Shown piece after piece: positions 7,323 to 60,331 of a stretch of DNA of 64,000 nt (its first letter is position 1; each line of letters starts with the position of its first letter). Location of the stretch: positions 18,032,213-18,096,212 of the forward strand of contig OZ234493.1 in the NCBI GenBank assembly GCA_965153455.1. Reading direction: 5' to 3'. Position numbers and translations under genes: made by a program. Source of the stretch: Sphagnum compactum (lineage: Eukaryota). The notes under the pieces are model-generated. The model saw only the letters and a list, made by a program, of their open reading frames with translations, made no database searches and had not been told where the DNA came from.

Positions 7323-8092
7323 TTAGACTAAATCAGGGTCTCTGTGTTCAAATTTAACATTTCTTTGATGCGTGTTGCAGTTATTATCAGAGAAAGGCCT
7401 CGTTCAAGAAGGTGAGTGTAGTAATGTAGATGCATGTTCAGCCTGGCCATTAATTACAGGTTTCCCCAATTCCTTCACAAACAACAGACTTGGTTTGTGG
7501 GCACCATAACACAAAGCAAGTCAGAAAACCAAAAATGAGGAAAAAGTTACTGGCTTTCACTAGGCTAATGCCTCAGATCTGGGATCCAACATGTCTGCAC
7601 TTTGGACCAGATGTCAATCGTGCTGATTGTGGTTCTCCACATAAGGAGTCAAAAGGGTCTTGCAGTAAAACACCTTTAAGCCCACTTTAGACCAGGGTCC
7701 AGGGTCCAATTTCCTAGGAACCAATTTGGACTCATGTGAAGTAAATTGAATCCTTGATTTGGACTCATGTGAAGCAAATTGAATCCTTGAGTTGGAGTGT
7801 ACCTGGGTCCCTAGCCTGATTCTTGGTTCTCCAAATCAGGAGCTCTCCTTTTAGCACTGTCTTTTGGTCTGAACCAATTGATTTTCCCTCAAAAACAGGT
7901 CCTATATTAGCCTCAATTTCCCACTTTTTGGTCTTGGACCCTCATCTGAAGGCCTTGGGACCAATTTAAAGCTTTTGACCAATAAGATTGCTTGAATTCA
8001 TCGCTCCCTAGACCTTCGTGTATAGTCACCCTTAGTTTCACAACATGTTTTTCCATAATTCATTTAGAGTGCACACATATATACCTTTGTAC

Positions 8093-8264: not shown

Positions 8265-9691
8265 CTCTATACAGAATTTCTTTGTTTTTTCCACTCCGGA
8301 TTTAGTTGCTATGACCGTCCATGTAATTTTTCCTTCTTCCCCCCAGGCTCCTCCAATCATAGCCACTGGCCAGGGCGAACCAGCACCTAGACTGGTACAC
8401 TCACCTTCTTGAGTGAGGCCTCTTGGGTTTAGGTTTAGGGTTTCTGGTTGTAGATTCAGAGACCCTGATTTTGTCTAAGGATGCTTCATGTATCTATAAT
8501 GTTTTGAAGCTGCCCCCAAAAAATTTGGGATTTTCACCGTGGTTCTAATATAGGCCAGGTTCACCTGACCAAGGCAAATTGACCCCGCAAAGCCCATTTA
8601 AATTGCTCATAAATATTCTAAATATTTATAAATATCATTTCCCTAGACTAAATCGGGTTCCCAAAGTCCAGACTTATAATTTTTTCGGCCTAGTATGTCC
8701 ATTTGAATGGGTTTTGGGGGTTTTTATGGTGATCCCAATGTGGGGGTCAATTCACCCTGGCCGGTTCACGCAAGGCCCAATTAATCATGCATTGCCTGCA
8801 AGATGAGCTCTGGCAGAACGCTTCAATAATGCACTGGGTGAAATCAGCAAACGGCAGGAAACGTGTGGATTAATATTTTTTGGGTCAGTTTTGAGATATA
8901 GCCCAAGTGTCTATCATCGGTAGGAACATTTAGCCAGATTCGGCTATGAGCTAAATATGGCACTAGAAAATTTTAAACATCTTAGTCTTATTTTTGGCTA
9001 CCTACTTGAAAACCATGTATGGAAATCTGACGATTTTTCTTTGAATTTGGTTGTTTGGTTGAATTTTGGCTATTGAGAATCTCAAAAAGCATTTGATTTT
9101 AGCACTTTTTTTAAATTTATGACTTAGTTTTTTTTCGGCCATAGTTTTTTTGGTAAAAGAGAGGTTGGTGTGTGGATGTGAACAAAAGTCATGATGACAA
9201 TAATGGAGGAGGCCAGAGGGAAAAAGTAAAGCGTGTTTGACAAGTCTCAAGGTGACTTTGCATATTCCATCCTCAATTATGAGTAGAAAATAGAGACATG
9301 TGTTCCAGAAAAGAAAGTAATGAATTGTTCAGTGGCCAACGAATCGGTAAAGCGGGTATGCTCCAGTCTGAAGAGTCACGGCATAACCCTTCTAGAAATT
9401 TCTGGGGGAGGAGAAAATGAAGAAGAAGAAACATCTCTGAGAAAAGTCGAAAAAGGAGTAAGAGAAGAGAGTGGGAATTCCGTGAAGAGGAAAGGGGTTG
9501 ATGTTTTTTGGGGAGATCTAGTGGAAAGTTCAGCTTAGCTTGCGGGAATCTGTGATGTGAGGGACACCCATCATACCCTGTGTATGCTATTGGGATGGCA
9601 AAGGATTTGTAGCAGGTTTTATGAGACCAAAAGGTCAAGAGAAAAATATTTATGAGAGCAGTGAGCAATAGGAATATCAGTCGTGTGAAAT

Positions 9692-15600: not shown

Positions 15601-16611
15601 CCAAGAGCTTGGTTTGAGTGGGTGTTCCAACTTGAAAGAACTACCTTCATTTATTGGCCAATTGAATGCACTCCAAAAGCTTGGTTTGAATGATTCGTCT
15701 AACTTGGAAGAACTACCTTCATCTATTGGGCACTTAAATGCATTCCAAAAGCTTAATTTGAATGGGTGTTACAACTTGAAAGAATTACCTTCATCTATTG
15801 GCCAATTGAATGCACTCCAAGAGCTTGATTTGAATAAGTGTTCCAACTTGAAAGAACTACCTTATCAATTGGTCAATTGAATGCACTCCAAAAGCTTAAT
15901 TTGAATGGGTGTTGCAACTTGAAAGAACTACCTTCATCTATTGGCCAATTGAATGCACTCCGAAAGCTTGGTTTGAGTGAATGTTCCAACTTGAGACAAC
16001 TACCTTCATCTATTGGCCAATTGAATGCACTCCAAGAGCTTGTTTTGAGTGGGTGTTCCAACTTGAAAGAAGTACCTTCATCTATTGGCCAATTGAATGC
16101 ACTCCAAAAGCTTGGTTTAAGTGACTGTTCTAACTTGAAAGAACTACCTTCATCAATTGGTCAATTGAATGCACTCCAAAAGCTTAATTTGAATGGGTGT
16201 TGCAACTTGAAAGAACTACCTTCATCTATTGGCCAATTGAATGAACTCCAAGAGCTTGATTTGAGTTTATGTTCCAATTTGAGAGAACTACCTTCATCTA
16301 TTGGCCAATTGAATGCACTCCAAAAGCTTAATTTGAATTGGTGTTCCAACTTGAAAGAACTACCTTCATCTATGGGCCAATTGAATGCACTCCAAAAGCT
16401 TAATTTGAACGGGTGTTGCAACTTGCAAGAATTACCTTCATCTATTGGCCAATTGAATGCACTCCAAAAGCTTAATTTGAATGGGTGTTACAATTTGCAA
16501 GAATTACCTTCATCTATTGGCCAATTGAATGCATTCCAAGAGCTTGTTTTGAGTGGGTCTTCCAACTTGAGAGAACTACCTTCATTTATTGGCCAATTGA
16601 ATACACTCTAG
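9692..16611 (+). pseudogene. Alpha/beta-hydrolase-NB-ARC-LRR immune receptor (Hyd-NLR), disrupted
   Basis: Phase-consistent GT-AG exons 9692-9847, 10843-11141, 11870-12278, 12720-12872, 13039-14095 and 14288-16611. Hydrolase motifs VIFFHG, WPEKWLPEDL, RILSLSYDS, AYSFGG, GVPHAG and DANHFTICKP. NB-ARC motifs GMGGIGKT, VLVVVDDV, CGGLPL, FLDIACFF and MHD-like IHE. Lesions: TGA 11137-11139, TAG 12750-12752, frameshift ~14005, 1-nt deletion ~15863, TAG 16609-16611. Confidence 0.92.
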
Positions 16612-17185
16612 GCTTTTATTTATAAGACTTCTTCAACTTGAAAGCATCTTGAGAAAAATGCATTCATCTATGGGCAAATTGAATGCACTCAAAGTGCTTC
16701 ATTTGTCGAGGCATTCCAACTTGAAATAACTATTTTCATCTATTGGCCAATTGAATACATTTGAAAAAGCTTCATTTGTCAAAGCAATCCAACTTGAAAC
16801 AACTACTTTCATCTACTAGCCAATTGAGTACAATCCAAAAGCTTCATTTGTCAAGGTGTTCCAACTTGAAATAATTATTTTCATCCACTAGCTAATTGCG
16901 TACATTCTAAAAGCTTCATTTGTCAAAATGTTCCAACTTGAAAAAAAAAAATTTCATCTATTGGTCATTGAGTGCACTTGAAAATCTTGATTTGTGTGAA
17001 TGCTACAATTTGCAGGAATTACTTACATGTACATTGACCAATTAAATGCACTCCAAAAGTTTTAATTCTGAGAATGGACGAGGTTGCAGGAATTACTTAT
17101 GTTTATTGGCCAATTTAATGCATTCAAGGAACTTAATTTGTTAAAGCGTTTCAAGTTGAGAGAATCACCTTCATCTATTGCCAAC
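14561..17185 (+). repeat. 72-bp tandem LRR-coding array: 28 complete near-identical units, a partial unit and ~8 degenerate units
   Basis: Unit LPSSIGQLNALQ[EK]LxLxxCxNL[KRQ]E. The DNA scaffold CTACCTTCATCTATTGGCCAATTGAATGCACTCCAA is almost invariant. Decayed copies continue past the stop at 16611. Confidence 0.95.
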
Positions 17186-22500: not shown

Positions 22501-25011
22501 GAAATCACATCAAACATTGCAAGTTAAAAACATATAAACAAATTCAATTTTGCATCAGTAACAACTAGGTATGACATGAAAAAACCTCTTTTTTCTACAT
22601 TGTAGCAAAGGGATTTGAGGCCATTGGAAAGGTTAATAACATTCTATGATTGTGACCTTTGGATGCAAAAAGATTAGCACAAGAGGGAATAGATTTGTCG
22701 ACCTTCTGTTGCACCAAAGAATCAACGGTTAAATTTTCTTATTTTCACAAAAAAAAATTCTTCATCACCATTTTCAACCTTTAGCCTTGATGGATCAACT
22801 TTTTAATCCACTTGATATATATAACATCTACCAACAATCATATAACTCCAATTTAATGACAAAACTTCAAGTAACATTGTGGGCAAGTGTGGATTTTTTG
22901 GCCCTTGAAGGCCTCTATGACAACCACTCAATGAATGCACTGCTTAATGTATTCAGCTCACAATGGGAACACTTCATTGCAAGTCATGGTTACAATGGTT
23001 GCCCGCAATAATACTCTATTGATGGTTCTAATAATAAGCAACTAATGTTATTTTCTTTTTGATAAGTTGTTTGATGAAGGTCCCTCGTGAATATCATTAT
23101 AAATCTTGACAAGATCATGGTAGATTTTGTTTTTCCCATACTTTGAAATCATTGCCATGACTAAGTAACTCAAACTTCAAACGTAATAGTTCCAATAAAT
23201 CATCCACACAAGGTCACCACCCACATTAATAAGGCATTTTCAAAAATTTGAATCCATGATTCACGGCCCATACTTCAAACGAATAAATTATTCACCTCTC
23301 TCTCTATACAAAATTTTGACAACCCAATATAAGTAGTTGATGTTTTTGGGACTTTTAGATGGCTAGGATCTTGCTCCACCTTAAAGAGCCTTGATAATAT
23401 CTAGCCTAGTTAAGAAAGGGATTTTTTTCTTGATGCCCAAGCTATGGCTACCTTTGGTGTTAGTGCTCCAAAATTGTCACCATCCTTGCATAACATGACA
23501 CACCCAACTTGAAAGCAAACCATACAAAATTTCACCCACCCACGTGAAGAAAATCTTGCACTACTACCAACATTCAACATACTTGAACAATTGTTGTTGT
23601 TGTTGATTCCAATGGTGTAGCCACTAACAAACAAATAAAAGTATTCCTCATTGCATCCTCCACATTCGATTAAAGTTTAGGGTCTTAAAACATTTTTACA
23701 TTTAGGTGACATTTGTAAATCAATGCAATTCAAATAAAATTGTAAGTTTTTATGAAATGTGAAAAGGCCCAACCAAGCTCATTATGAAATGACCCCATTT
23801 GTCAATTTCAATTCAAAAGAAATTGAAATCAATAAACACCATCACTAGAAGAAAATTGGGTTTTTGTAACCAACCAATTTGCGACTAGCTGCGACTATTT
23901 GACATTTACAACTATTGTTGGTTATATCTACAACTACTTTTTGCATTTGGTCTTGCTTGCAACTACTCTATGACTAACTTGCGACTAATGGATTTTTTCA
24001 TCCTTTCATTTGGATAGCTTTCAACACAATTTCCATAGACGCCTCTACCTACCATTAGTTGCAAATGTCACCAAATGAGTCGTAGCCCCTATGGGTATTT
24101 CAAGTGTATTATACATATCTTAGGCATAAGGGGTCCACAATTTTGTATTGAATGTATTATACTCATTTTTATGTATAATGATTGTATGTAAGTTGTATTT
24201 GGAGCATATTTGAATATGTATTGCATACATCACCTTAGTTTTTGTCTAGTTTATTTATGTTAAATTTGTTTAAAATAATATACAGATTATACCCAAGTCA
24301 TATTACATGCCTTATGTGGTTTTCCAAATTAGTGTTCCAATATATTTGCCCAGATTTATGTGTTGCAGTCTAATAGGGGAAAAAAACATATATTTCTACT
24401 CCTATAATCCAAACATTTAAGTCTTCAATCCTAAATTTTTGTGATTTTATTGGCTCAAGAAAAATGTCATGTAGTACATCAATTTGATGCTTAGAAAAAC
24501 TAAATGCATCATTCTACACATTTCTAAGTAACTTAGCAAACTCTAGCAGGCCATGTAGCACATTAGACCTGCCCACAGGCGCTCCAACTAGTTTGAATAT
24601 AACCTGAGTAGTATAGATGAAAATGAAGACTTTTAACAAAATCAGGCCTGCCAGATGCTAGATTAACAATATATTTTAACCTAAGCACATTCCCAAACGA
24701 ATGCCAACACCCACCTTCATTCTTGCATTTACCATGACATCTCTCCATCATCTCCTTCCCAATGTCCTATTCCTTCCAAAGTATCGCAACAATGTCCTCC
24801 TCCTCCTACAGTAGCTACTTTGTCTCCAAAGTAGTACGGAAACATTTCACAAGGCCAAGACTTCATTTGGAAGCAGAATTTCAGATGTCTCATTGATTAT
24901 CTTGTCAACATGAAGTTTTTCACATTCTTTTCTTCATTAGTTTCTTTAATCCTCTCTAGTTTTGCTACCATCCCTGTGGAATTCTCTAACAAATGTCGTG
25001 CTGAAACTTAC

Positions 25012-27974
25012 CAATGAAAGATTGACGAACAACTTGTTCAACAACCCCTTCAGTCTTTGTGCCCTGGGCAAGCCACCTTGTTATGCGAATCATGGCCTGC
25101 AACATAATCTGTGGCCCAGCTCCTTGTACTGAGTCTGACCCTTGCTGCAACAGACCAATATAACAACATGATCAGCTGTATGGTTGTAAAAAACAGTCGC
25201 AGTGAAGCTGAATGCCGCTGTCCCTTGAAAATAAGCAAGATACAATAATATGCTGCAAGGACATTACCTCTCCCATGTCAAAGAGGGCCCCATGTGGATA
25301 CCGCTTTCATCTAGAAGAGAAGATGGTTCTCTGCATGTGTCCAATAGAGCCCATAATGCACAAAATGATGATGCTAGATTGTCCAGCCTACTTGCAAACA
25401 CAATTTTTTCACGTGCACCTCCCACACAACCAGGTTGCGTGTCATACACATTCAGCTCGAAGTCTGCAACCTCCATCACATCACAGTTGAGCTCCTCAGC
25501 TAACACCTGCAATTCCTTCCAACTACCTTCCCTTGTTGAGAGCCATGCCTGAATTTTCCTGCTAGGCCATAGAGTCCCCTTCCTCTTCCATCAGCCTTGG
25601 CCTTTGCTGCAGTGATATAGGCTTTAACTTAGGGTCTGACAAAATAAGGATTGCACCGTTTCATGCCTCTTTTCAATCTTGGTTTGGTATGGCACAGAGA
25701 TGAACATTTCAACAGACAGGAAAAGTCCTGAACTGAATAGCATAGGCCCATTTCCTCATTAGATGCAGTGTTGGAGTTCCAAGTAAGATATTAGAAAATT
25801 GTCGAAACTCACTTGCACTCCCTGAACACATAGCCAAGTTGGAAGACACAAGGTACCCCCAAACACCTCCACTGTGGATAGACAACAGCATCCACTCATT
25901 GTGGGATTACCTGTATCAAAAGAAGGTGATGTGGAGTTCTATTTTGAGGATAGACATGACCTATGCGCTCAAGATGTTCCACAGGCATTGATGACTCTAA
26001 ATCATATGGCACCGTCAGTTCTGACTCAATTTGGATAACCAAAATAGGTGCAAACTGTGCATCCATTTCAGCCTTGCCATCTTCAATTGCTAGACCACTG
26101 GAAATAGTATCATGACAAATATGAAATCAATGCAAGCAGAGAGAGGCATACAATTCTGCATCTATATAAGGCTTGTAACTCAGAACAATTGACCTTTGTC
26201 TAATGTCAGGTTTACTAAGGAGAAGTCTAAAAGTCTCTCAATACCTCCAGTCTCTCACAGATTCACCAAATATATCATCTTACAGAGTTCCCATTGCCCT
26301 GAACTTTACTTTTGCACACTTATTCAATATGGCCGGCTGTCAAGAGACAGACAGAGCAGATGGACCATTAGAATTTTATGTCCTCTGTCGCAGATTATGG
26401 ACAACATGCCCTACAACATAAGATCTGAAGAGAAAGAAAGTATTCAAACTCTCAGATAGATTTGGAAGAGAGGGGATGCGCAATATAGGTCGTCTGACTC
26501 TGACAAGTTCATGTACAAGCTTGCCATCTTTCCTTTGAAGCAAAACCCAACCTGCTACACTGAGGTCTCTGTCAAACCATGTATGCCACATCCCTGATCC
26601 ACAGGTCTTCACTTGAACATGCAAAAAGTTTCCGTTTGAGGAATGAGAGACTGGTGTCAACTTGGGACAGGGGCTGTCAGTGTGTGCAGCCACCACATGG
26701 AATCCATTGCCAGGCTTATATCTGCATTCACCAGTCAAAACTCCTAAAAAGGATGAGGAAGATATCCCAATTCAAAGACACTGTCTTCCATCATGATACG
26801 AATCAACCTTAGTATCACAATCAAGAAACTATGGGTAGGCAATGAGGGAACTTTGATATGTGAACACAGAAGCAAATTTTGTACAAAGAGGAAAAAACTC
26901 ACTAATTGTGAAGGGAGACATTTCGTGTGCTAAGCATGACTAAGGTCTCCCTTTTAGAGGTGGTGACTTTCCAACTATAGCAGGAGCAATGCGGTTGCCC
27001 CAAAAATCCCTCCCCCATGCCCCAAAAAAAACTCTTGACCCACAGATACCCATATAGTTTTTGGTGACTGGCTGACCCCATGATCCCTGCTCTAGCTCGA
27101 TTGGGTATGGTAGGTAATATCTAACATGGCCTAGTGGTGAATTGAAACCCCAACCACCTGCGAGGTGGCCATGAGTCCAACCATTTAGCTATTGCTTGAT
27201 GCTTATTATTTGCATGAAGTTCTGCATTAACAACATTGGAACAACATTCTGAGTACAATGGCTACACAACAGGGTGGAGACAATTGCAAAGTACAGTGTA
27301 TGCATTCAGGGCCCCTCAAAAAATCCAAGAGATTATAAAGTTCACTATAACAGAGGCTGGGGAGATGGTTTACTTGTGACCAATTGCGAAAGCAAATATG
27401 GAAGACATGTTACATATGAAGAAGTAGTGACCTCATGGCTGCAATGCCCATTCATCACACTCACTCAATTGCTGGAATCCCGCACCAAGCAAATGCCTCC
27501 TTGCCTCTGCTGGTTTTCATCCACACCTTCCTCTCAGTCACAATTATTGGTCTTCTAAAGGATCTTCATTAGTACCAAGGGTTTCTCCATACTTACATAT
27601 TGTCTTGTAGGATGTAACAGAATTGAAGAAAATAACAAGGTGTTCTTGCACTTTATGAAGTACATTAACATGAAGCTGCATTTACAGAGATGAGAATGCA
27701 TTTGTCATCAAGTCACAAAGACCCACTAAAGCATTGCAGAAAAGCACAGGAAAGATTTGGTGCATGAAGAATCATGTTGCAAAATTACCTCAAGAGTTCT
27801 AGCAGGATATAGTACCAACAACAGTAAGGACTTGTGGGAAAGATTGAGCTTTTTATTGCCACCTAAATTACTTTTACCTGTGCTTACCAGTGGCATGAAA
27901 TGGTGTGCAGGAGTGTTCACAAATTCAAGCAAATGAGGGATGATTGAAGCTTGCGATTGACAGCAATGAAGTCC
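25012..27974 (-). pseudogene. Aspartyl aminopeptidase (peptidase M18) pseudogene, 3'-truncated
   Basis: Exons encode 'SIIPHLLEFVN', 'AEARRHLLGAGFQQLSECDEWALQP*GHYFF..IFAFAIGHK' (TGA 27433-27435), 'YKPGNGFHVVAAHTDSPCPKL..WHTWFDRDLSVAG..PILRIPSL', 'VLAEELNC..DFELNVYDTQP..RLDNLASSFCAL' and 'GSDSVQGAG'. No C-terminal exons are recognisable below 25012. Confidence 0.9.
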
Positions 27975-28689
27975 CTGTACAGCCAAATCAATTTGTCCCA
28001 TAACAACTCAGACCATCAGCAATGACAAGGAGATTTGCACATTGAAACCCACACCCAATGCAAAAGAACAGAACTATCTCTCCCCTCTATTGCTCCCTCT
28101 ACTCTCTGCATTAAAAATGTAGTCAGCATACTTCTGTTTGCCAGGCTTTGGTATCTACAGTGCAACTACAATCAATGGCAAGTTGATCCCCAGGTTACTG
28201 AATATGGAGTATGGCATTTTTTCTAAAACCTTTGAGAATAGAGAAAATAACTAGTTCAATTTTGACAGCATACAAATCTGTAAGGGATAACAAAATCACA
28301 TTTTATTCCAGGGAAAAGTTTATAGTGACCTCCTCCCACAGACCTCCTCTACTAAATTCATGGCATGCCAAGGTGCCTCCACTTAAAACCCTCCTGCCAT
28401 CTTTAGCTGCTCATCCATCAGGTAGCAACTAGCAACCTGGTGATGGCGTATTGTAGCAATTCAGGTAGGTTTAGGGTTCACAACACTTTTTTGATTGTTT
28501 TTTTCTTGAGAATGTACAAGATATGCATTCTCAAGACCAGTGTCTGCATTCTTGATAATCCTGACACTGATGAGGATCCACAACGATCGAGATGATCAAA
28601 AGCATCCATGGCCAATCCATCCAATCACTAAACAGTAACAATTGATGGCACTGTTGATCAGATGTAAAGAACTAAATGGCATCCAACCT

Positions 28690-29030
28690 TTGGATTGTGG
28701 AGGGTGGGAGATTGAACATATTGGATTTTTTTTGTTGGTTTCAATGTATTCCCATGAAGTTCCCATCAAGTTTTTAATGTGTTCTCAACATGTTCCCCAA
28801 ATTCTCAATGTGTTCATCAACATGTTCCCAATGGCTTTTCATTTTACCCCATATCCTTTGCCCTAAATTCTACTCTTGTAACCTATGTAAGCAGCCCAAA
28901 GGAGATTTCAACATACATATTTTGGGAGAGTCCAAAGGTTGATTACTTTTATTTTGTGCTGGGCTGATCAATGATGCCCATCACAAATAACCCAAAAAAA
29001 AAGTGCTTCTAAGGTTCCCACAACTAATTG
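28690..29030. repeat. Interspersed repeat family (ATGTTCCC/ATGTTCTC-rich)
   Basis: Related copies at ~34080-34250 and, inverted, at ~46170-46440. Confidence 0.6.
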
Positions 29031-32000
29031 ATACGAGTGACAATATGGGATATTGGTGCCCTTTGCTGCCATGCCAGCAGACAACATAACCTGGCTAGAT
29101 TTGCCCTTATGTTTTGCAGCCTTATTATCTGCAATCATCTACAGAAATAATAACACAAACAACAATAACTAAAGCCATGCTACTATTTTTCTAGTGTTGC
29201 AGCAAGGCATGTTATAAAGATTTTTAGTTTAGAAATCGAACAATGCCTCCACAAAATGACAGAGCTTTCTATTTTTAAAAAGTTACTACTTGCCAGGTCC
29301 TCATTGAGTTATCACCAAAATTTTCTAAAAGAATGATGGAGTTTACATGGAGTAAGATATCTTTTATTTTTTTAAAAATTTGTGAGTTCCAAAGTTTGAT
29401 AAAATTTTGGCCATATTTTAGCTTTTTCAAATTACCCTAAGAATAATTCCCAAAAATGTCTTTATATTTTGTAAAGTATTGAAAAAGGTGAACATGCTAG
29501 TTGTTAACCCTTAAAGGATGCATTGGCAAATTGAAAAAACATATTTCCCTATCTAGTTACCACATTACATATAAATTGCATGAAAAGTTTAAAACACAAC
29601 ATTCTTGGAAGAAAGAAGATTTTTCCCCTTGAGTGAATACTACCTTTCAAAGGTAGCCTCCAAATATACATGGAAATTTCTCGGCAGGTTCCTCAAATTT
29701 AAAGCTCCTACAGAAAGAGACCAATATTGTGCCATTTCAATACATTGTAATTTCCAATGTTGTACAGTTATTTGATTTTTAAAAAAAACAGCGATTCTAG
29801 CTTTTAACAAAATTGATAATAAAAAAACCATTTTTTATTATTTTAAAAAATCACAATTAGAGAATTATTGGTTTTGGTTACATTGAAAGTATAAAATAAT
29901 CTACAGTTTTCATGAAATAACCTGTAAATAACCAAGCAGTAAGAAAGTTGCATTTTTTGTTTATTCAAAAATATTGAAACCCAAGGTTCTATACAAAAGC
30001 CATTTTTTATTTTTAATTAAATAATATGATTTAAAAAAAATATTCAAATTATTTTCCATAATATCATAACAATAGATGTACTTTAGAATTATTTAAGTTT
30101 TGTTATAAAAAAACCTTTTTGGGAACTCACATGACCCAAAGGAACTAAAAGAATCCACTAAATAATGTGATTTTGTTAAAAAATAATTCAAAATGTTTTC
30201 CATAATATCATAACAGTAAATTTACTTTCAAATCGCAGTTAATTACCTTTCTTGGAAAGAAAGGAACCAAGGGAACGATTCCTCCTAGTTCCTTTAGGTC
30301 AATGGTTGTTTTCAATGGTTGTTCCATTAGTAAAAACTAGCCGACCCAAGAACAACAACAATTGACCTCTCTATGTTATTGGCACATCTACCTTAGCTTC
30401 TCAGTTCCATGAACAAAACCTCTATCACATGGTGATTATTGGCCTCCCATCATTGGCATATCTATCTGGGAATCCGAATTGTCAAAAGGACGACAAGTGT
30501 CAAGGGCGGGGGCAAGGGGAGCAAAGCTGTGATGATGTCCTCACAACGCCCAATCTCCTCATAAATAGTGGTTTGTTAGCAATTTCGAATCGTCAGTAGG
30601 ACTGCAGGTGTCAAGCCGGGGGGAGTGTTACATTACTGCTATCGACAAGTGCGAAGGAGCTGGGTGTGAAGCAATCTAATTTTTTACATTTGAAATTTCG
30701 CCAAAAACATTCATACTTTAGCTCTTTATTTTTTGATAAAGGCAATCCTAATACAAAATTAAATTATACGTACTAAATTTAGCCCCAGGATTTTATCGAG
30801 GGGCTGGAAAACTGTTGTAGGTTTGAGCAAGTAGTCAGAAGGGCCAGTTTCCATGTCTTCAACCCATTGTCCAACCACAATTAGTTTGGTCAACTTATGG
30901 CCCCACCTTTTTCAATGCCTTTCATTTGACCTCCATTCTGGTTTTACAAAAACATTTGCTCAAAAAATTCCCATGGGTGTTGTAGGAGGGCAAGGATCAC
31001 CAAAACTACGGTTGTGCTCTCCCTTATCACCTTGTTAGTGGGAAGTTAATAGTTAATACAAATGTAAAGCATCCTATTGACATCCTTAAACATTCTAGGT
31101 GACCTATTAGAACCTACTGTTAAAATATGACAATTTGAGGAAAAATTTCCTTGAAACTAGATATTTACTTTTTACCAAGATCCTTATATGAATTGCAGTG
31201 CATTTGATATTTTTCACCAAGAGACAATATATTGCCAAAAACCAAATGCTGGTTGGTTGCTTGGTATTCAATATCCCCATGTCTTGGGGTTATTTGATGA
31301 CCTCTATTATAGATGGGCTGGCTATGTTATATAACAATTCAGAAACCAAAGTGATGACTTGAACAAATCAAGTTTTTTCATTTCAAAATATTTGTTAAAT
31401 TTTTCTTAAGAATTGAGCATGAACCATTTATGATATCTATTAATAACCTCCTCCTAAACAATGTAGGACAAGTATTAAATGCATTTGAAAACTTGGATTG
31501 AACCTTTGAAGTCAATCACTTTCAAGAATAAGATAAAATATCTAAGGAAGGTAGTTTATTTGTTCTCATTGTTTTGTTTGAGGAAGGTAGTTTATTCGTT
31601 TTAATTGTATTGTTTGTTTGTTTGTTAGGTTGAGATTTCCCAAACCTCATGGGCAAAGATGTTGGATTTTGTGGTACCCTTATACCATTGGGAAGCTCTC
31701 AATGAGTAGAGGTGCACTGAGGTGGTTTGATGGTGTTTACACTTGCAGTTCAGGAGTTATTGAATATTGAACAAATTTCTAGAACAAGTCAACAAAATCA
31801 TATATACATATAAGTAAGGAAATTGTAGCAAACTCTTGGTACTATTGGAAAGCTCTTGATGAGTGCGATTTCTTGGGGGTGATTTCATCATTTTAAAACC
31901 TACGATGAGGTGGATATTGAGTTTTGCATTATTTTCAATACTGGAAATTAATTTAAATTTTGAAATATTTTGTTGCCAATTTATTTATTTTTCATCCCTG

Positions 32001-35000
32001 AGCTATAGCCAAATTTGGTTGAATACTCTTGTGGATGATCGCCACTTTGGCATCAAAAATTTTGATTAAAAAAAAACCCTCCTTGGGAGAAAAAAACGCT
32101 CTAGTTCCATTGCCATCAAAAGTCTTCACAAACCCAATCATCCCTTCCCTTGAAAACCTCCTAACATCCAACAAATGAATTATTGGCAAGTCACCTCTAA
32201 GGGGATGGTGGATGACAAATATAGTTTTGGTCGCTTATTAATCCATAGTACATAGTTTTAAAATCATGTAAGATACCCTAGCACCGAGGTAAGGAGCTTC
32301 ACCTTACACCAAAAAACCAATGTTTTTCCCAATGTTGCAGTTATTTGAATTTATAGCTGCCTTGGTTATTGTGGCCAATGCCAAAACTATGTTTGCCCTT
32401 TGAAGCTGGCTAGCCCAAAACAACAACCAAGTTGGGATATTACTAGGACATAAGATGGAGGTGGAATGGTGTGAGAATTTTGTTCTCATGGTTTTCATTT
32501 TTGTAGGCGAAGATTTGTTTTCACATACCTATGTAGTTGATGTTGCACCAACATTGTAATACCAATTCCCAGGATCAAAAATACTGCATGATGCATAGTA
32601 GCACCCAAAGGGCTGGGGTTTGATCCCAAAATCTATTCTTTGAAGGCAAATATCATATGTTGGCCTATTGACCCCCACGGTCCTCCAGCTGATGACCATT
32701 CATAAAAATGGATATATACACTTATTTGGACCCCTTTTGATTCACTGTGTTCTATGTGGCCTTTCCCCAAAAATAGTGGTTTTTGAAACTTTTGCATAAG
32801 AATCCCAACTATTTGGGTGGGGAAAGGGAAAATTAGTGAGACCATGGCGACTCGTGGAAACATGCCATAATTAAGCCTGTAATTTCATGTTCCGCACTCC
32901 CACTTATTTGGACCACTAAAATATACACCCATAGTTCATGCCCTTGCCAATGGGGTAGGCTAAAAATGGCAAAGAACCGCAACATATTGATGCATCCCAT
33001 CTTCAAAATGATTATTTTGATTCTTATATATATAAATTTAAGTCCCATATGCCACAATGGAATTGGGTGAAGTCGCAATATTTTGAAATTCATTTGCATT
33101 TTGTCAACATTACGTTATTTATGATATTCTAATCCTTGATTTTCACATGCCATTTTCCAAATTAACTTGATGATGCCTTGGCTTTCATTATTGCAATGCT
33201 TGAAATTTGAATATGATGTTATGTGGCCTAATCATAAAAAGGAAAGAAAACTTGGAGTAGTCACTACACCATTATTTCAAAAATTTATAATTGTCATTTT
33301 TTTACAACAAATTGGGGAGTTTTTTTCTAGTTTAAAATCAACTAATTTCTGTTCATTGCTAGGTTATTTTTGTGAATTTGCAAAATAATTGACAATTCAA
33401 AAAAAAATAGAGCATTATACCATACCTCTAAAACACCATGAGAAATGGTTGTTCTTGTAAAGATTTGAGATATGCATAACCAGTGAACCTAACTGACTCA
33501 TATATAAAATAGTAAAAGGACCTTAATTTTCACAAGGGACCTATCTTCTTAGTTTATCCTCTCCTAAACAACCCACCCCCCCCCCCCCCCCCCCCGGGCG
33601 GTGTGCCACTCCGTTGAGCTATGCATAGCACAACAACCGACCTTTCCACGGCTATCTTGGTCAATCAAGTTGTTTGAGCCTAGTTGTATAGTTGTACCTG
33701 CCTGTGTACAACCTAAGTAACATGGGTTGCACGCCCCCCTCTTTACATCTTTTTAATGGGTTTTTACTCATCTCCATTAATGGTGGTGGACTAGACAGGC
33801 AGGGAATCCTTCCCTCTATCCTCCCTGGCTTTTCTGTTGTAGCCAAAGTGATAATGAACAATATAGCACAATATTTCACCAAATTTGGTTACAAGCTAAA
33901 TAAATATGGTTAAATACGGTGTGCTTTGTAGATGAGATTAGGTGAAGCAAAAAAATTGGTGACATCCATGTCTAGGAATAGAATATGTATGGAGCAAATG
34001 ACAAGATTGGACATAGACCCCGGAGGGTTCATCATTTTTCTTTTAGGGGAGGAGAAGGAGTGGGTGGGATTAGAAAATTTCTTGTGTTCCATTATGTTCC
34101 TATTGGTGTTCCCCATGTTCCCAATGGGTTCCTCATAAAATCCCTCAAGTTCTTAATAGTGCCTCACTTCATCCGATATCCTTTGCCCAAAGGTTTTCCC
34201 TTTCTCACCTATATGGCTCAATCAAAGGGGAGGCACTCCATACTCACATGAAAATGGGATTAGGGTAGGTAGGGGCAAGGATTGTTTGTTGGGTGGTGCA
34301 CTTCTGTCTAGGTGGGTGTGCATGAGCCTCAGCCAGTCGGTCAAGAAGGTACTTTCTAAATTTGGAGTTAACATACATTTGGAACACTTCTCTTATTTTA
34401 TGGTTGTTTCCTCTTCAGATTTTTTTCGCATATGCTTTCGGTAATGTTGGATTGTCATCTATAAATTAAAAATGATTTGTCACATGGAATCCACTAACTT
34501 TTTATTATGGGGAATGGGGTCACAAAGATGCTTATAATGGGGGCTACCCAATGTTTTTAAATGTCTGATGATGGGGCCAATCAAGATGGCTCATTCAAAG
34601 GAAATTAAAATAACTTTGGGTGCTTATCTCAATAAATAATATCAACAATATACACACAATTTTTAAATGTTGGTTAATGTTGAATCATTGTCCATGTACA
34701 TGTTCTTCCCATTTTTGTTCTCCTTTTGCAAGGGTGTTTTTTTTTGGTAGGGGTAAGGGGCGGAGGGTTTTCATGATGGGGGCGAAGCAACTGGGAAATT
34801 CAAGAAAATATTAAGAATGGAAAGTTATTATTACTCGGTGGACAACTTCTTTTGGAACTAGAACTGTTGGAGGTGAACCTGTTTCTTTTGGCACTCGAAA
34901 CAAGATGTAAATTAACTTTTGAACCGAAATTAAGTTAGTTGGATTCTAATCACAAGGAACAAAGAACATTATAATTTTGCAACTTGCAAAGAACTGTTCT

Positions 35001-37812
35001 TGGTTGTTATGTTGCCTTTGCCCTTGGGGGGGGGGAGGGACTACAAACTGACACATAATTCTTGTTGTCCTTTTATACATTAATTTTATCTAGTGCCCAT
35101 TGTTTTAATGGTCGTATACAATTAAGTTGAAATTTACTTGGGGATGTATTTTGCACCTTTCTTTTGGGGCTTGCTCTTGCTCTGTTGAATCGCAATCCTA
35201 ATATTATGCTTGCTGTCAAAAAAAATAATCGGAGCTTGGATCATACCTTATTTCATAAGTCCAGCTGTTGGCAAGTCTTGCTTTGGTCACAGGCTGCACG
35301 GACTCATCGACCTCCATAACGATCGTGGTTTAGGGTGTGTTGCAGGTTGCCATTAGCAATGGTGATTTTTCCTCTGAAGGTATGTAAGGATAGTTGCTTG
35401 ATATATGCCATGTGGTTTATCTTCATAGCTATGTGAAACTTTTTCGCCACACAGGCTTTCACAAGATTAACTTGCTCATGAATTTGCAAGCTCTTTTCAC
35501 ATTTTGCTCAAGACGAACATGTGATGTCTGTAGGAAGTAAGGTGGTTGTGCAATGTGAGAGCTATTTATTCCTCTCAGGTCAAGGATGTCCACAAAAGGG
35601 TTAGGCATTTTTTTTTGCTTGTGACTTGGGCCTTGTTACTTAATTAGGGTTTGTCTGGTGGAACACTTTGCATTGTAGGGGCTATTCAATTACTAGGATT
35701 TTGTGTCTGTGTTGGTAGCGGGCCAAACAAGCATCCACTAGAGTGGTAGTCTGAAGAAGGTTGGTTGGTTTTTATGCTCCAGCTTCAATCCAAGTTTGAT
35801 CAAAGTGATGCTTATGTAAAGATTTACTAATCACTTGTTCTTTGAGGTAGCCCGACATATTTTGTCGATAATATTCTGCAACTGTGCAGGATCTGGGCGG
35901 ATGCAACTTATAGTGTACTGTGTGTGCAAGTTTTTTATGATTATTTCACAGACTAGAAGGTATGGCGTATTTGGTAGTGACTCATTGTTGTCAAGGTAAT
36001 TACTGACAAATCAACTTTTGAGTCCTTTTTCCTTTGTCTTCTTCATCTATCATAGAAACAAAAGAGTGTGGTTTTTGCATACAATAATGAACTGCCCAAA
36101 CACTAATTACAATTTGACCAAGAACTTTGGGTTTTTCTACTATTCGCTTAATATATGTACCTTCACAGAAGTATCCTATTAGCCATATCCATCTTTTTTC
36201 CTCTCTTCCACCACAGCTTATCTGTAACAAACTGCATCTAAGTTTGATCAAGAATGAATTGTTGGTGTTTTTGCTCTTGCTTATATTATGCTGCTTCAAA
36301 TCTTTTGTAACTAATCAAATGAGTTTGTAGTAGCTTAGAAACCCCTTGTCCTTTACCTTGAGCTACTATTAGTTTTATATTGTCTATTGTGTAGATTGGC
36401 CATCTCATGCATTGAGAAGCTTTTCACAGGATCAAGAGGAGGAATCCTCGAAGTGACCTTTTACAAAAAAAATGATCAATTCTAAAATTAGTGTCGAACT
36501 TGGATCCAATGATGGGCACTTTGTAATGGTAGTGATATGGTTGTCATGTATGTTTACAACAAGTAACATGGTGGCCCTACTAAAGCTGTTTTGGTCAATT
36601 CTAGGTGCAGACAATGGAGTTACAGTAGTCCTCAGCTTTCCAGGTATCTCATCTCCAGCATATGTCTACTCATGACACTATTTGCAATAATTTTTTAATT
36701 TTTTAAATTCTCATTAGTGCAATTACCAATTTTTTGCATTACATAACTTGTGTACCTATCAAAACTTATTTACAAACTAGTGGTTGAAGAAAGAAAGGTG
36801 ACAACAAAACTGCTATCCAATTGGATAGAGGAGAATTGTTTGCAGTGTTGAGTGTATGTGAAGGAATGGACTATTTTGCCATGTATAATGGTGGTTGTGT
36901 GTTCAGGTTGAAGCAATAGGCTCAAAGATGGTTGGCAAGTATCCAACATCCAGCAAGAATATTGGTAAATCCTATAACAAGCTAAAGGAAAAAGTCAAGA
37001 ACGAGGTGAGTCTAGCATATTCTAAATTGAGTGCAATTAAACAAATTCAACCCCCCCCCCCCCCCCCCCCCCCTTGCCACCAATTTAGAGAATTTCAAGA
37101 CCACTAATCTCTATATACTTATCTACCCCCACTGTCAGGAGCTGATGAAGTCAGTGGGTACCAATGGCAGCTGGTTGCCACCATGCATCTAATACTTTGT
37201 GGGTGACACTTGCAAGGTTATGGTTGCACTCATTCTTCTTGTGTTTGTTTTAGCCTGGCTGGAACTGATACACAGTGATGTTCAAAGTGTTTTTGTGGAG
37301 TTTTCTCTGCAATGTTACAGAGATTTTAGTTCACACTTGTATTGAAGATATCTGGCCTTGATTCTTATCAGCTTTTACTTGGATGTCAGGAAGCATGTGA
37401 ATCCATGAATGTTGTGGCTGTTTCATGAATCCATGACATCCACCTTGGCCCCTTTGCATGAAGGGCAGGCAGTTATGAGCTGAAGAGAAGATGCTATTTC
37501 ACAATCAAAGAATGTTGAAAAACTACTGACAGTGAGAAGTCCCTAATTTTCTTTTGTTTAGTTTTGAGTCTAGAGGCTATCTGCTGAGTGCAAAAGGAAA
37601 TGTGTTGTTAGTGTTATTGTCCATGTGACTTGGTCAACAATATGCAGTGCAATTGTATTTTGTACTCTTCTTTGTGATTGCGTGTAACTGCTTTCTGGTG
37701 TACATGGTGTCTAACCAACTCTAAAAAAGGAAGAACGATCATGCTCCCATTCCAGGTGAAGGCATTAAAAGTGACATAAATGCCTGTTATTGGTGGGACG
37801 AATTTTGAGCAG

Positions 37813-40057
37813 ACTCGGGCCGAGCAGATTGCTGCTCAGCTGGAGATGGGGCATTTGGAAATTGACACAAATGAGGCTACCCGCCCTCCATCACCCCCTC
37901 CTATCTATGACTCTAATGGACAGCGCACCAACACTCAAGAGGTCAGTTTCACTGTTCTATTCAGGATTGCAAACTGTTGTCAGCATTGGTCCATTGCTTT
38001 GGGGTATTTCAACTTTGGTCTGGGGTAATCCATTCACTCTAGGGTAAGTGCAAAATTGGGAAGATTAATCTATCTCAGTTCTGGCTTATCTCTGCTAGTT
38101 GGTATGACCTTCATGTATATTGTCAGTCTTGAACCATAAGAGTTCTGGGGGCCTATGTTAGAAAGGGCTCTTGTGGATGCATTATGTCCCTATGCTTGTA
38201 GGAGGAGAGTGCTGAGTTGTGGGTAGATGGTGGTTATGAATGTTTCCAGGGAAGAAGACGGGAACAAATGGAGATAGAAAGGCGAGAGGTGATTGGTATA
38301 CTCTCACAAATCTGTTCTGTCTCCTTGGATTAAAGAGGCTTGGTTCATGTCATAGAGCACAATTGTACCATTTCTTCTCACATGGAATGGAAGACTGCAG
38401 GTGAATGTATGTTATTTCATCCTTCTTACAAGCCACCAGCAGGGTACAAACCACTACAAAGAAGCCAAGCTCTTCATTCCGGTGAGCAATGAACAGTTGT
38501 GGCAGAGATTCTCTTTGGTCTTTGAATGGGTATGTGAATTATGAACATTATGAATTTGGAGGTGTTGTCTCCTGTTGTGGGGTGTGCAGGTGAAGGACTA
38601 TCCAGGCTACAACTTCATAGGTCTCATACTTGGGCCACGTGGAAACACTCAGAAGCGCATGGAGGCAGTAAGAATCTAGAAAATTGGCAATTAAATTGTC
38701 AAGATATAGGTTACAGATACTTATTGCCAAACAGAATCTTCAAGAGTTTTCAAACTAGAATGACCCCTCTTTTGTCCAGCAGATATATGTATTCAAAAGT
38801 AGGCAAGCAGCAGACATGAAGTTGTGTAGCTTAAGATAATTTGTGTGCATATTCATGGCAGGAGAAAGGGACCAAAATTGCAATTCTTACTGCCCATGAG
38901 CCAAGGTGGTGATATAATAATGATTTCAACAGACTCTGAAATTTATCCTTGATCAAAACAATGCTTATTTGGAGGAAAGTCATATATGTTGTAGGCAAGG
39001 GTTTCCTGCCCACTTCTTTTACTGCATTTTATAGTGCTCAGAACTGGTATGTTGCAGCAACAACCCCAGCAAGTAGGCCGTCCTGATATAAAAGATGCAG
39101 AGGGTGCTTTTGAAGATTTGCATGTACACATCACAGCAGACACCATTGAGAAAGTGGAAGCAGCTGTTGCACTCATTGAACCTCTACTGACACCTGTGGA
39201 TGTAAGCTACCATGTCTTGGCTGAAAAGTAGGGAGGGAATCTTGACATGTTGTGGAATTTTGTTGTTTGTGGGAAATTTCTTGAATGGCTGGATGTGTTT
39301 GAGAGGTGATTATAAACAGGTGTTTTCTGATCAATGTCTTGGTGTGATTGTGATCAGTTATATGGATATGGTAAGTTTTGAGTTTTGGATGTTCTCTTTG
39401 TTTTCCATCTGATTTTATCTCTGAGATGGTTGTCTTCCCTGTGCTGTGTAGGAGGACAGAAATACTCACAAGCGCAAGCAGCTTCAGGAGCTAGCAGAAA
39501 TGAATGGTAAAGTAGATTGCTCTCCCTCCCTAGCTTCATTGACTAGTTAATCTACTGACATCTTGGTAGGAATTCTTGGTCTGGAGAAGCTCCTGTAGTT
39601 GCTTGGTTTATAAGGTAAAACAGTTAGCTGCATCTTCCCTGGAGCTTCAGATGATACTTGTGCTTGTTTGTGGCAGGAACCATGCGAGATTTTGGGAAGG
39701 CATGTGCTGTTTGTGGAGAAACTGGGCATCGAGAATGGCAGTGTGACAAGGACAAGCTAGTAACATTCCAGTCAAAGGTACAGCTAGCATTGTTGTCAAA
39801 GTCTTACAACAGAGTTCATATTGCTCTTTTGCACTAGACCCCTTTGTCAAAACTTTATGAGCTTGAATGATGTCAGTGTATTCATCAGGCTACAAAGCTT
39901 TAGTGAACCTTTCTTTGTATATATGTTGATGGGTGATTTGCAGGTTTGTTGTTGGGTGGTTGGGTGTTGGGTATCCTCAGGTGTCTTGCCAAATTTGTGG
40001 AGATGGTGGTCATCCAACCATCGATTGCCCACAGAAACATTCTGGCACTGATCTTGG
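37813..40057 (+). pseudogene. Splicing factor 1/branchpoint-bridging protein-like (KH-QUA2 plus two CCHC knuckles) pseudogene, apparently truncated
   Basis: Exons 37813-37941 (RPPSPPPIYDSNGQRTNT), 38250-38295, 38401-38481 (frameshift before EAKLFIP), 38590-38667 ([26 protein letters not shown]), ~39050-39201 (EDLHVHITAD..VEAAVALIEPLLTPVD), 39452-39506 (HKRKQLQELAEMNG), 39677-39777 (CAVCGETGHREWQC) and 39981-40057 (CQICGDGGHPTIDC). Confidence 0.85.
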
Positions 40058-40969
40058 GTAGGTCTGCACTTTTGGGGAGATGTGTAATTTCCTACCTCAG
40101 TACAGGGATTGCATGGAATTTTTTTCCTTGTGCAGAGTATTCAAGGTTAACGACAGGGAATAAAGAGAGTAAACCTGATTTTAAGTTCTCATATGCAATC
40201 TCTTGGTTTTGAATGGGAGTGTTTTGAAGCTTGATTTTTGCTCATTGCCATACTCTTGCAAACCTCATTGCCATATTTTCTCTTTCTCTTTACTATTTAT
40301 CAATTTTTTTTTGTTGCTTGCTTTTGTAATCTCTTTGTTGATTGTGCTAGCCAGAATGATGGCTGAGTCTTCTAGTTACCCCCAGACTTTGGCTGGTTTA
40401 ATCAATAACCACAAGATTTAGCAAATGAAGTTGTCAATGCCTCTAACATGATTTTATATCAAGCTTTGTGATGTAAAGGTAAGTCTTCACGTTTATGGAC
40501 TTGTTTGGAGGGGAAATGTGTGTTGGCACTTATACATCTGAATGGTGATGTATGTTTGCTCCTAAATGGTGATATTTGATTTGTGCAAGGTTATTCATGT
40601 AGGAAGGAGAATCTGCATTTCAACCCTAAGGATTCAACTATGGAGCCTAGGTTGTCTCAAAACATGCAAATTGCAGCCACATCAACTCCAACAAGTTGCT
40701 GGTGCCATCATTGTGTTTATATGTGGATCATCTAGTTATTCAAGTTAAGTATTGTTGATTACATTAAGGTAGGAACCCATGTTCAATACAAAACATTTTT
40801 CCATTTTTGCAAAACTTAAGGTGAGTGTGCTCAGTGAGTTTTTATTAGATTAATGGAAAACATTTTCTATGTCCACTTTGTGTGTGTGATTATGAGCCAT
40901 GGTAACCCTAACCCTAGAACATTGTTAATTAAACCCTAAAATGCTAACCTCAATTCATAATGTTAAACT

Positions 40970-41600
40970 AGGGTCCATTATTCCTTTTCAATAAAAAATA
41001 TTTTATAAATTATTTAACATCGCCATGTGGCATGTTTCTATTCCTCAATCTTTAGAAGATGTGGCAGATTTGAAATTTCCATTCAAATAATAATGCGACA
41101 CGTGTCAAGATCCTCATTCTTGACATTTGATGAATGGGATATATCTAGGGTTTTTTAATAAATATTTAATTGCCATGATGTTCGTAATCAGACACATGGC
41201 AGATTTCGATTAACCAAACACAAAAGATGTGGCCATTTCTTGGCCATAAGATTTAGAAAATTCTAGATCATCCAATATCACGATTTGGGAAAATCAAACC
41301 TTTTAATAAAATGCCACATTTGTAAACAGAAACATAAGAATTAGATGGTCCAGATATGTTTTTGGTATGTACATCAATTAATTTCCCAAATATTAGAAAC
41401 CATGCCATGTGGCAACAACCCATTAGTTAATTTTTTAAAAAACATGGCCACTCCCTACCCACAAGATCAGGAAAATTGATCTTACATTGTCTTACCACAT
41501 GTGACAATCCCAATGTGTTGAATCTAATGACCTAGATAAATCTAAAAGGATTTAAAGAAACATAATTTAAGTATTTCAATAGTTTACATGTGTCTCTGTT
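40970..41600. repeat. Subterminal region with multiple (TGC)CATGTGGCA/ACATGTG motifs
   Basis: About ten degenerate copies upstream of the CACTA-like right end. Confidence 0.55.
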
Positions 41601-42829
41601 GGAGTTTGGATCCACCAAAATAGTTGTAATTTATAATCGCAAAATGATGCCTTGTATACATTATGTATATACTAGTCCCATCGGATGAAACAATATATAC
41701 TAAATTTAGTCTTCATCTACCATTTGATGACGTCATCCTAATGTAATGTTTCATGCAACTATTTGTCGTCTGCGACTTGTCTTAGGCGACTATTAAATAG
41801 TTAGTTGTAAAATGTCTCTTTCGACTAAAAAACAGTCATAGACACCAGTTGCAAATCAAGTTTTTCCTTCTTGTGCATCAACAAACCCTTGAAATAACCA
41901 AACAACATTGTTGTGATATCAAAAAGGGGAACATGCCAACTTAACAACTTTGGAATGCTTAAGGTTTTATAGAAAGGATTTTGACATACTAGAATAGGAA
42001 AAATGCTTGCCAGTTTTGTAAGAACCACCGAAAGTTCAATGTGTCCATTTTGCACTTGTAGACCACTCGCATTCTCAATGCACAAAGAAAATGTGGCTTG
42101 GGGTATGAAACTCCTCACCAAATATCCTAGGTTTTTTTTTTTTGTCAATTTCATTTTTGAGGTTCATAACCTCTTGACAAAGCTCTACAAGCTGATGACA
42201 TGTGAAACTTCTCTTCGCATCAGGAGCACCGGTTTTCAACCTCTTATGATCAAGCAAAAATCCCATTGAGCATGAGCCTTGGCACATCTGTTTCTTCTCC
42301 TTTCCCATGTGCTGCAATATTGGATATTTTTTTGTTAAATTCATAATGCCTAATACTTATCAAAGCAGAACACCCTTTGATTTGTTGAAATGCTTATCCA
42401 TAGCTTTGCTTCATGAACATATGTGCAATTTTTTTGAATATATTGTTTAACCTAATGTTACCCAATGGGGTCATAATATCCAGCTTCTAAATACTTGTTC
42501 TTGTTTACCTTGTTTGCCACAAATGGTTGGAATCAGTGACTAAAATCTTCAAAGTGTTTTGTAAGTTTGTTTATAGATTGTTAAACTTTACACATTTAGT
42601 GCCAAAACCTCAATGTCTTTAAGTTGGGTACAAAACTAGATTAGTGCTATCATAACAACTCCTCACTAGACAAGCCAAGTAGAGCTGCAAGAACCCCAAT
42701 TAGAGAACTATTCCAAAAATTCTAGTAGAAACCAAACTCCCAACTGTTTCTACAAGAAGTTCAAAAAATGGAAATGATGGGAGTTTGTTGGAAATAAAAG
42801 AAGAAAAGTTGTGGGTGGGTAGTGGATAC

Positions 42830-53565: not shown

Positions 53566-60331
<6,766 letters not shown>

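What the first reader, a model, noticed from the sequence alone, without database searches (positions are those of the whole stretch)
23843..41875. Putative 18-kb cargo-carrying CACTA element holding a head-to-head pair of host genes
Seen: CACTA-like inverted termini (CACTAGAAGAAAA vs reverse complement CACAAGAAGGAAA), CAT on both flanks, and CGACTA/CAACTA subterminal repeats. No transposase is recognisable inside. Instead there are two divergently oriented, intron-containing housekeeping gene copies (aspartyl aminopeptidase on -, SF1-like on +). Each loses its 3' end within ~1-2 kb of the nearer terminus. Known: CACTA elements make 3-bp TSDs and can capture gene fragments (Pack-CACTA), usually short ones. 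Inference: a contiguous ~16-kb chromosomal block was captured and moved, making this a large cargo-mobilising element in a moss. A 3-bp TSD match can arise by chance (1/64 per end pairing).
Basis: partly seen in the sequence, partly recalled or inferred. Interest (0 to 1): 0.8.

Follow-up and report, generated by a model that had tools for sequence, protein, structure and literature searches.

The report
Peat-moss CACTA transposon with gene fragments
This is a real 18-kb cut-and-paste transposon of a peat moss that carries broken middle pieces of two unrelated host genes, picked up separately, which is a known way for plant transposons to shuffle gene parts, not the move of an intact gene pair.

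Summary
The element is real. It spans 23843-41875 with CAT on both flanks. 15 of 15 other copies of the target repeat lack it and overlap by 3 bases. 22 of 26 complete family copies (2-26 kb) have their own 3-bp duplication. The 'contiguous 16-kb captured gene pair' is wrong. The cargo is two internal, broken fragments, each missing both ends: aminopeptidase aa 267-619 of 756, SF1 aa 148-404 of 925. The SF1 donor is an intact gene elsewhere with no aminopeptidase in the 40 kb fetched around it. The 5.8 kb between them is DNA that lies upstream of a CACTA transposase; this copy has deleted that gene, but a 26-kb sibling keeps it, broken. Other copies carry other gene fragments. It is a Pack-CACTA/Tpn1-like family. 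One open oddity: the aminopeptidase donor's two ends were not found in this assembly. The scan noted a similar CACTA gene-fragment train on other DNA of this genome (e1-7226117).

The parts
23840..23842 (+). left target-site duplication, CAT
   Evidence: single in 15 of 15 paralogous empty sites
23843..24845 (+). left arm: terminal inverted repeat (CACTAGAAGAAAA), subterminal YRACTA repeats in the first 300 bp, and family-shared sequence
   Evidence: 40 scored genome matches of 203 candidates; 38 exact pattern matches, control 0; shared out to 330-1000 bp by other copies
24844..28696 (-). internal fragment of an aspartyl aminopeptidase (M18) gene with introns, aa 267-619 of 756; six exons (27977-27877, 27510-27373, 26723-26451, 26096-25899, 25512-25291, 25147-25013), one premature stop and one frameshift
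28697..29204 (.). deletion junction: here the C15 sibling has more aminopeptidase (back to aa 129) and a whole, stop-broken transposase gene; the window has a short dispersed repeat (about 28721-29046) and filler
29205..34962 (.). element backbone lying directly upstream (5') of the transposase gene in the C4 relative; no coding domain found
   Evidence: 79-86% BLAST identity to G000:C4:17509789-17516433, which adjoins the transposase at C4:17496776-17509787
34963..37110 (.). 2.15-kb segment of unknown origin with splice-site-like features; present only in the three large siblings; no donor found
   Evidence: 8 matches of 9 candidates: self, 2 siblings, weak hits at 68-75%, one 39-bp hit
37111..40389 (+). 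internal fragment of a splicing factor 1 (branchpoint-bridging protein) gene with introns, aa 148-404 of 925; frameshifted exon and an 80-bp deletion
   Evidence: 97% to the intact donor G000:C14:13837596-13834230
40385..41875 (+). right arm: family-shared sequence, subterminal repeats, terminal inverted repeat (reverse complement CACAAGAAGGAAA)
   Evidence: 40 scored matches of 128 candidates
41876..41878 (+). right target-site duplication, CAT

Best explanation
A dead, non-autonomous deletion derivative of a large CACTA transposon. Steps: (1, inferred) an ancestral element with a TnpD-type transposase gained host DNA at internal sites on either side of the transposase region, most likely by template switching during gap repair, copying the middle of an aminopeptidase gene downstream of the transposase and the middle of an SF1 gene on the other side. 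The 'head-to-head' look comes from that layout. (2, shown) The loaded element multiplied: near-full-length siblings sit on C14 (17.4 kb) and C15 (26 kb). (3, shown) The lineage of the window and C14 copies deleted the transposase and part of the aminopeptidase; the two copies have different TSDs (CAT, ATG), so the deleted form still moved, with a transposase supplied in trans (inferred). (4, shown) This copy landed in a dispersed repeat and made a 3-bp duplication. (5, inferred from C>T excess at CG and CHG) the cargo was methylated and decayed; it does not encode intact proteins.
For: 22 of 26 paired copies have TSDs and the interiors fall into many unrelated types. Empty sites in 15 of 15 paralogous repeats; contigs of 2 of 4 public runs join 23839 to 41876. 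The C15 sibling holds Transpos_assoc, Transposase_21 and DUF4216 pieces at the window's deletion point. Copies of that transposase at 89% or more occur only at C15, C11 and C4, plus 5' bits at two more places, all inside or beside this family's ends (40 of 63 candidates scored). The block [unknown 2.15 kb + SF1] sits at a point that is continuous in the C4 relative (17516433/17516447): left junction seen in the window, right junction in the C12 copy with an AACC overlap. The window's SF1/right-arm join is a later deletion at a GACTT overlap. SF1 copies differ from the donor by 2.4-2.8% and from each other by 3.1-3.2%, with few shared changes, so spread followed capture quickly. C>T changes hit 15.6% of CG, 7.4% of CHG and 1.2% of CHH sites. 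Other copies carry pieces of starch phosphorylase, S9 peptidase, CDT1, PGM/PMM, ThiF, HSP90, V-ATPase and copper oxidase, all above Pfam's cut-off.
Against: 4 of 26 paired copies lack a perfect TSD, among them the C15 sibling that holds the transposase (TAG against TTG). The C4 relative has no intact termini in the 70 kb fetched, so the middle could be old captured DNA, not original backbone. No single copy keeps both SF1-block junctions. In two small copies (C14:15.50 Mb, C17:11.95 Mb) the transposase start points the other way, so the layout has been rearranged. No intact transposase of this subfamily and no TnpA were found. Microhomologies of 2-5 bases were not tested against chance. No aminopeptidase donor was found, so its capture boundaries cannot be checked.
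Confidence: 0.85

Rival explanations
1. One contiguous ~16-kb chromosomal block with a native head-to-head DAP/SF1 pair was captured and moved.
For: Divergent orientation, introns kept. The two orthologues are on the same chromosome in four Sphagnum species.
Against: The donor match stops at 37111 inside SF1 intron 1 and the donor's exon 1 and promoter are not in the element. No aminopeptidase in 40 kb around the donor. Orthologues about 62-71 gene models apart. The middle is transposase-adjacent DNA.
Confidence: 0.02
2. Capture by the tandem-insertion route (two nearby copies lose facing ends and move the DNA between them, as proposed for Arabidopsis Pack-CACTA), followed by internal shuffling. 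For the aminopeptidase this would have cut the middle out of the donor and destroyed it.
For: The aminopeptidase donor is missing from the assembly: aa 1-128 and 620-756 hit only paralogues (6 of 6 candidates scored, 13 of 13). The fragment abuts the left arm and, in the C11 copy, the 3' end of the transposase, which a half-element/half-element hybrid could give. Both donors were probably on one chromosome arm, which fits local hopping.
Against: The SF1 donor is intact, and backbone continues on both sides of the SF1 block. An excision would leave the donor's two ends behind, and none were found. A separate aminopeptidase fragment at C11:6808412-6810129 reaches about 30 bp beyond the element's junction and has no family termini near it, so the donor was copied at least twice.
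Confidence: 0.12
3. The two remnants are leftovers of whole-genome duplication between two unrelated chance termini.
For: Sphagnum had two genome duplications (PMC9946827, passages), and true paralogues exist (C9 aminopeptidase, C1 SF1).
Against: The SF1 fragment is 2.4% from its donor while the duplication paralogue is 13-15% away; published Ks peaks are 0.41 and 0.64. The same ends pair at 26 loci; empty sites exist.
Confidence: 0.01

Closest known systems
Tpn1 family of Ipomoea nil (En/Spm-CACTA; PMC5105172, passages read)
   Same: Conserved termini and subterminal repeats, interiors replaced by host gene regions, 3-bp TSDs; 339 copies, mean 7,081 bp, longest 40,619 bp; a few copies keep a TnpD homologue without TnpA. 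This family: 2.1-26 kb, a few copies with a broken TnpD-type gene.
   Different: A moss, not a flowering plant; at least 26 complete copies, not hundreds; no intact autonomous copy found here; activity not shown.
Pack-CACTA of Arabidopsis (Catoni et al., PMC6379663, parts 2 and 3 of 5 of the text read)
   Same: Non-autonomous, CACTA termini, 3-bp TSD, groups with different captured DNA, some cargo without a findable origin.
   Different: Much larger here; cargo flanks a transposase remnant; the SF1 junctions point to insertion inside an element, not to the tandem half-element route.
Tgm-Express1 of soybean (PMC1947982, abstract and outline only)
   Same: CACTA ends around several unrelated, intron-containing host gene fragments.
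   Different: 5.7 kb and spliced into a host transcript; expression of the moss cargo was not tested.
Pack-TIRs formed by gap filling or FoSTeST (PMC8277862, passages read)
   Same: Internal breakpoints, short microhomology, later amplification by transposition.
   Different: Described in animals; here the mechanism is inferred from a few junctions.

Membership tests
CACTA (En/Spm) superfamily | Short terminal inverted repeats starting CACTA/CACTG | tested here: met
   Left end CACTAG; right end CACAAG in this copy (11 of 13 alike), CACTAG at both ends in many other copies
CACTA (En/Spm) superfamily | 3-bp target-site duplication | tested here: met
   CAT/CAT; 22 of 26 paired copies; 15 of 15 empty paralogous sites
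CACTA (En/Spm) superfamily | Subterminal repeats | tested here: met
   YRACTA 27 and 20 per kb at the ends against 1.7 per kb inside
CACTA (En/Spm) superfamily | TnpD-type transposase (Transpos_assoc, Transposase_21, DUF4216) in the family | tested here: met
   Absent from this copy, present but broken in the C15, C11 and C4 relatives
CACTA (En/Spm) superfamily | Second gene (TnpA-type) | tested here: inconclusive
   No such Pfam hit among 27 window ORFs of 62 aa or more in 28000-37200; short or decayed exons would be missed
Pack-CACTA / Pack-TYPE | No transposase of its own | tested here: met
   0 of 5 transposase pieces hit the window
Pack-CACTA / Pack-TYPE | Host gene fragments with introns, from more than one locus | tested here: met
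   Aminopeptidase and SF1 fragments, separate origins
Pack-CACTA / Pack-TYPE | Moved with its cargo (same cargo at several sites with different TSDs) | tested here: met
   C1 (CAT) and C14 (ATG) share 95-98% of their length; C15 carries both fragments too
Pack-CACTA / Pack-TYPE | Capture by tandem insertion and complementary terminal deletion | tested here: inconclusive
   SF1 block looks inserted inside the backbone; the aminopeptidase junctions allow either route
Pack-CACTA / Pack-TYPE | Present-day mobility or chimeric transcripts | not tested
   The one read-laying run used DNA contigs
Whole-genome-duplication remnant | Divergence at duplication age and syntenic context without termini | tested here: not met
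   2.4% from the donor against 13-15% for the paralogue; bounded by TSD

The most novel reading that the evidence does not exclude
The aminopeptidase orthologue that is full length in other Sphagnum species has been lost from this genome and survives only as transposon cargo (at least 9 element-borne pieces plus one orphan), and the capture itself caused the loss, either by cutting the gene or by cargo-driven methylation of a dispensable duplicate. That would be a natural case of a Pack element deciding which duplicate gene survives after genome doubling.
Probability: 0.15. Interest if true: 0.6.

Novelty: new member of a known kind. Interest (0 to 1): 0.33.

Why it matters
It extends gene-fragment capture by CACTA elements, described in flowering plants, to a moss; I found no paper on it in the held library (searches; subscription papers are mostly missing). 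The family keeps intermediates, from transposase-bearing to deleted copies, so the order of capture and loss can be read off one genome. It also warns annotators: 97%-identical, intron-containing gene pieces inside these elements look like genes. Size and behaviour lie within the known range (Tpn1 up to 40.6 kb), so the surprise is modest.

Tried and rejected
Locating the aminopeptidase donor by synteny: DNA searches with the neighbours of the C9 paralogue gave only repeats. C11:6808412-6810129 as donor: rejected, it is itself a broken fragment, aa 383-619. C9:2.56 Mb as donor: rejected, 26% diverged in the shared DNA and matching the other paralogue cluster. Donor for 34963-37110: none; the best other hit (68%) lies in an intron of a pyridine-nucleotide oxidoreductase gene on C2. 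Pfam on 400 ORFs from the window and from one representative of most interior types (ORFs filtered by length and GC, and 42 of the 442 listed left out): most gave nothing, so the cargo list is a lower bound; hits below Pfam's cut-off (Caskin, SCAPER, SH3, Agenet, MitMem, THOC3, DUF5318, CLIP1) are not counted as evidence. The joint 23839-41876 in runs X4 and X8 cannot be told from paralogous copies of the target repeat, and runs X2 and X10 did not show it, so it is not proof of an orthologous empty site. The abundant CACTA family with 642-aa frames is only about 67-72% alike to this transposase and was not followed. Sequence and word look-ups of earlier findings returned nothing. No supplements were read; they might list moss Pack elements.

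Full report
Observation. The window is G000:C1:18032213-18096212 in a 382-Mb genome; the closest proteins come from Sphagnum. The first 300 bp hold 8 YRACTA motifs and the last 300 bp hold 6, against 1.74 per kb inside.

The ends belong together. The left end gave 40 scored matches of 203 candidates and the right end 40 of 128. A tight left-end pattern matched 38 times, its reversed control 0 times. Several left or right ends had no partner in the DNA fetched. The element sits in a dispersed repeat. In 15 of 15 other copies of that repeat the left and right flanks are contiguous with a 3-base overlap, CAT in 12. Contigs of 2 of 4 public runs also join 23839 to 41876, though these may be such paralogues.

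The cargo is two internal fragments. Against a 756-aa Sphagnum aminopeptidase (P0136) the window covers aa 267-619, with a stop and a frameshift; against a 925-aa SF1 (P0170) it covers aa 148-404. SF1 has an intact donor at C14:13832215-13838773. The match is 97% but runs only from 37111 (inside intron 1) to 40389. The 40 kb fetched around the donor has no aminopeptidase hit. In S. fallax, S. magellanicum, S. jensenii and S. troendelagicum the two orthologues share a chromosome, with locus or accession numbers about 62-71 models apart (that numbers follow gene order is my assumption). So they were not a head-to-head pair.

The middle is element DNA. Window 29205-34962 matches C4:17509789-17516433 at 79-86%. 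On C4 this directly adjoins a CACTA transposase (17496776-17509787), and the 26-kb sibling on C15 holds the same gene where the window has a deletion. It shows Transpos_assoc (below cut-off), Transposase_21 and DUF4216, broken by stops. Copies at 89% or more lie only at C15, C11 and C4, plus two 5' pieces, all within this family. None of 5 transposase pieces hits the window or its C14 twin. The C14 twin shares the deletion and has its own TSD, ATG, so the transposase-free form kept moving. Host-derived DNA in the window is thus about 7 kb, plus 2.15 kb of unknown origin, in 18 kb.

How it was built. The block [unknown segment + SF1] sits at a point that is continuous in the C4 relative, with about 13 bp lost: the window shows the left junction, a copy on C12 the right one, with an AACC overlap between donor and backbone. 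The window then lost more by a deletion at a GACTT overlap. This fits copying into the interior of an existing element by template switching (PMC8277862, passages) better than the tandem half-element model of Catoni et al. (PMC6379663, parts 2-3 of 5); this step is inferred. The three large copies differ from the SF1 donor by 2.4-2.8% and from each other by 3.1-3.2%; most changes are private to one copy, so spread came soon after capture. The duplication paralogue is 13-15% away, and published Sphagnum duplication peaks are Ks 0.41 and 0.64 (PMC9946827, passages), which rules out fractionation. C>T changes fall on 15.6% of CG, 7.4% of CHG and 1.2% of CHH sites, the pattern expected of methylated transposon DNA.

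The family is a general collector. Interiors fall into many unrelated types. Pfam hits above cut-off include starch phosphorylase, S9 peptidase, CDT1, PGM/PMM, ThiF, HSP90, V-ATPase and copper oxidase (ORFs scanned).

Against my reading. The C15 sibling lacks a perfect TSD. The C4 relative has no intact termini in 70 kb. Two small copies carry the transposase start in the opposite direction. No intact transposase or TnpA was found. No single copy keeps both SF1-block junctions.

An open oddity. Family-wide, aa 129-619 of the aminopeptidase is present at mostly 80-99% identity, in element copies on C1, C14, C15, C17, C6, C7, C10, C11 and C4 and in one orphan piece on C11. Its first 128 and last 137 residues hit only paralogues (6 of 6 candidates scored, 13 of 13). 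The orthologue is full length in other Sphagnum species. Either the donor is lost here or it lies in an assembly gap; I could not reach the syntenic site.

Comparison and novelty. The closest described system is the Tpn1 family of morning glory: 339 copies, mean 7,081 bp, longest 40,619 bp, 3-bp TSDs, captured gene regions, a few with TnpD only (PMC5105172, passages). Pack-CACTA with DNA from several loci is common in maize (PMC8903248, passages; it does not mention mosses), and captured fragments outside the transposase frame are described in Chenopodium (PMC8978399, passages). A 2026 review had no hit for 'moss' (PMC13317346, passages). Four searches for a moss case gave none (listings only). 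The scan itself noted a CACTA-borne gene-fragment train elsewhere in this genome (e1-7226117, not checked). Verdict: a new member of a known kind; interest 0.33.

Noticed in passing
window 10648-16611 (+): NB-ARC-LRR gene; the 72-bp tandem array at 14555-17059 (34.6 copies) encodes its 24-aa LRRs, with a frameshift near 15850. Upstream exons look hydrolase-like (recalled resemblance; no Pfam hit)..
   Followed up: partly
window 55171-55698 (+): Exon with an MCM N-terminal domain.
   Followed up: no
window 18124: Another CACTA-like terminus (CATTAGTAGAAAAA) of a different subfamily, partner not found in the window.
   Followed up: no
window 61636-62068: 56-58-bp tandem repeats, about 7.6 copies, GC-rich, just before a GC-rich region at the window end.
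   Followed up: no
window 7321-7449 and 8367-8480: Inverted duplication about 1 kb apart with an exon/intron border in each arm.
   Followed up: no
window flanks 23540-23842 and 41876-42200: The target is a repeat with at least 16 copies, six clustered on C1 at 18.9-20.4 Mb; its nature was not worked out.
   Followed up: partly
G000:C4:17496776-17537709 (L101-L104, L122): A relative of more than 40 kb without intact termini: broken transposase, nested repeat, and a 20-kb train of host fragments (V-ATPase, copper oxidase, weak SCAPER)..
   Followed up: partly
family copies: By hand count, 12 of 15 named host fragments (weak hits included) point from the left arm to the right arm; the 3 that point back include the two downstream of the transposase. 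This hints at co-orientation with the element's own transcription.
   Followed up: partly
G000:C11:6808412-6810129 (L070): Orphan aminopeptidase fragment fused behind unrelated GC-rich DNA, no termini of this family nearby: a second, independent capture.
   Followed up: partly
L008 and L013 (C6:9.67 Mb, C13:15.73 Mb): Two left ends share the same flank and have a right end about 310 bp upstream: closely spaced tandem copies, as in the Catoni model.
   Followed up: no
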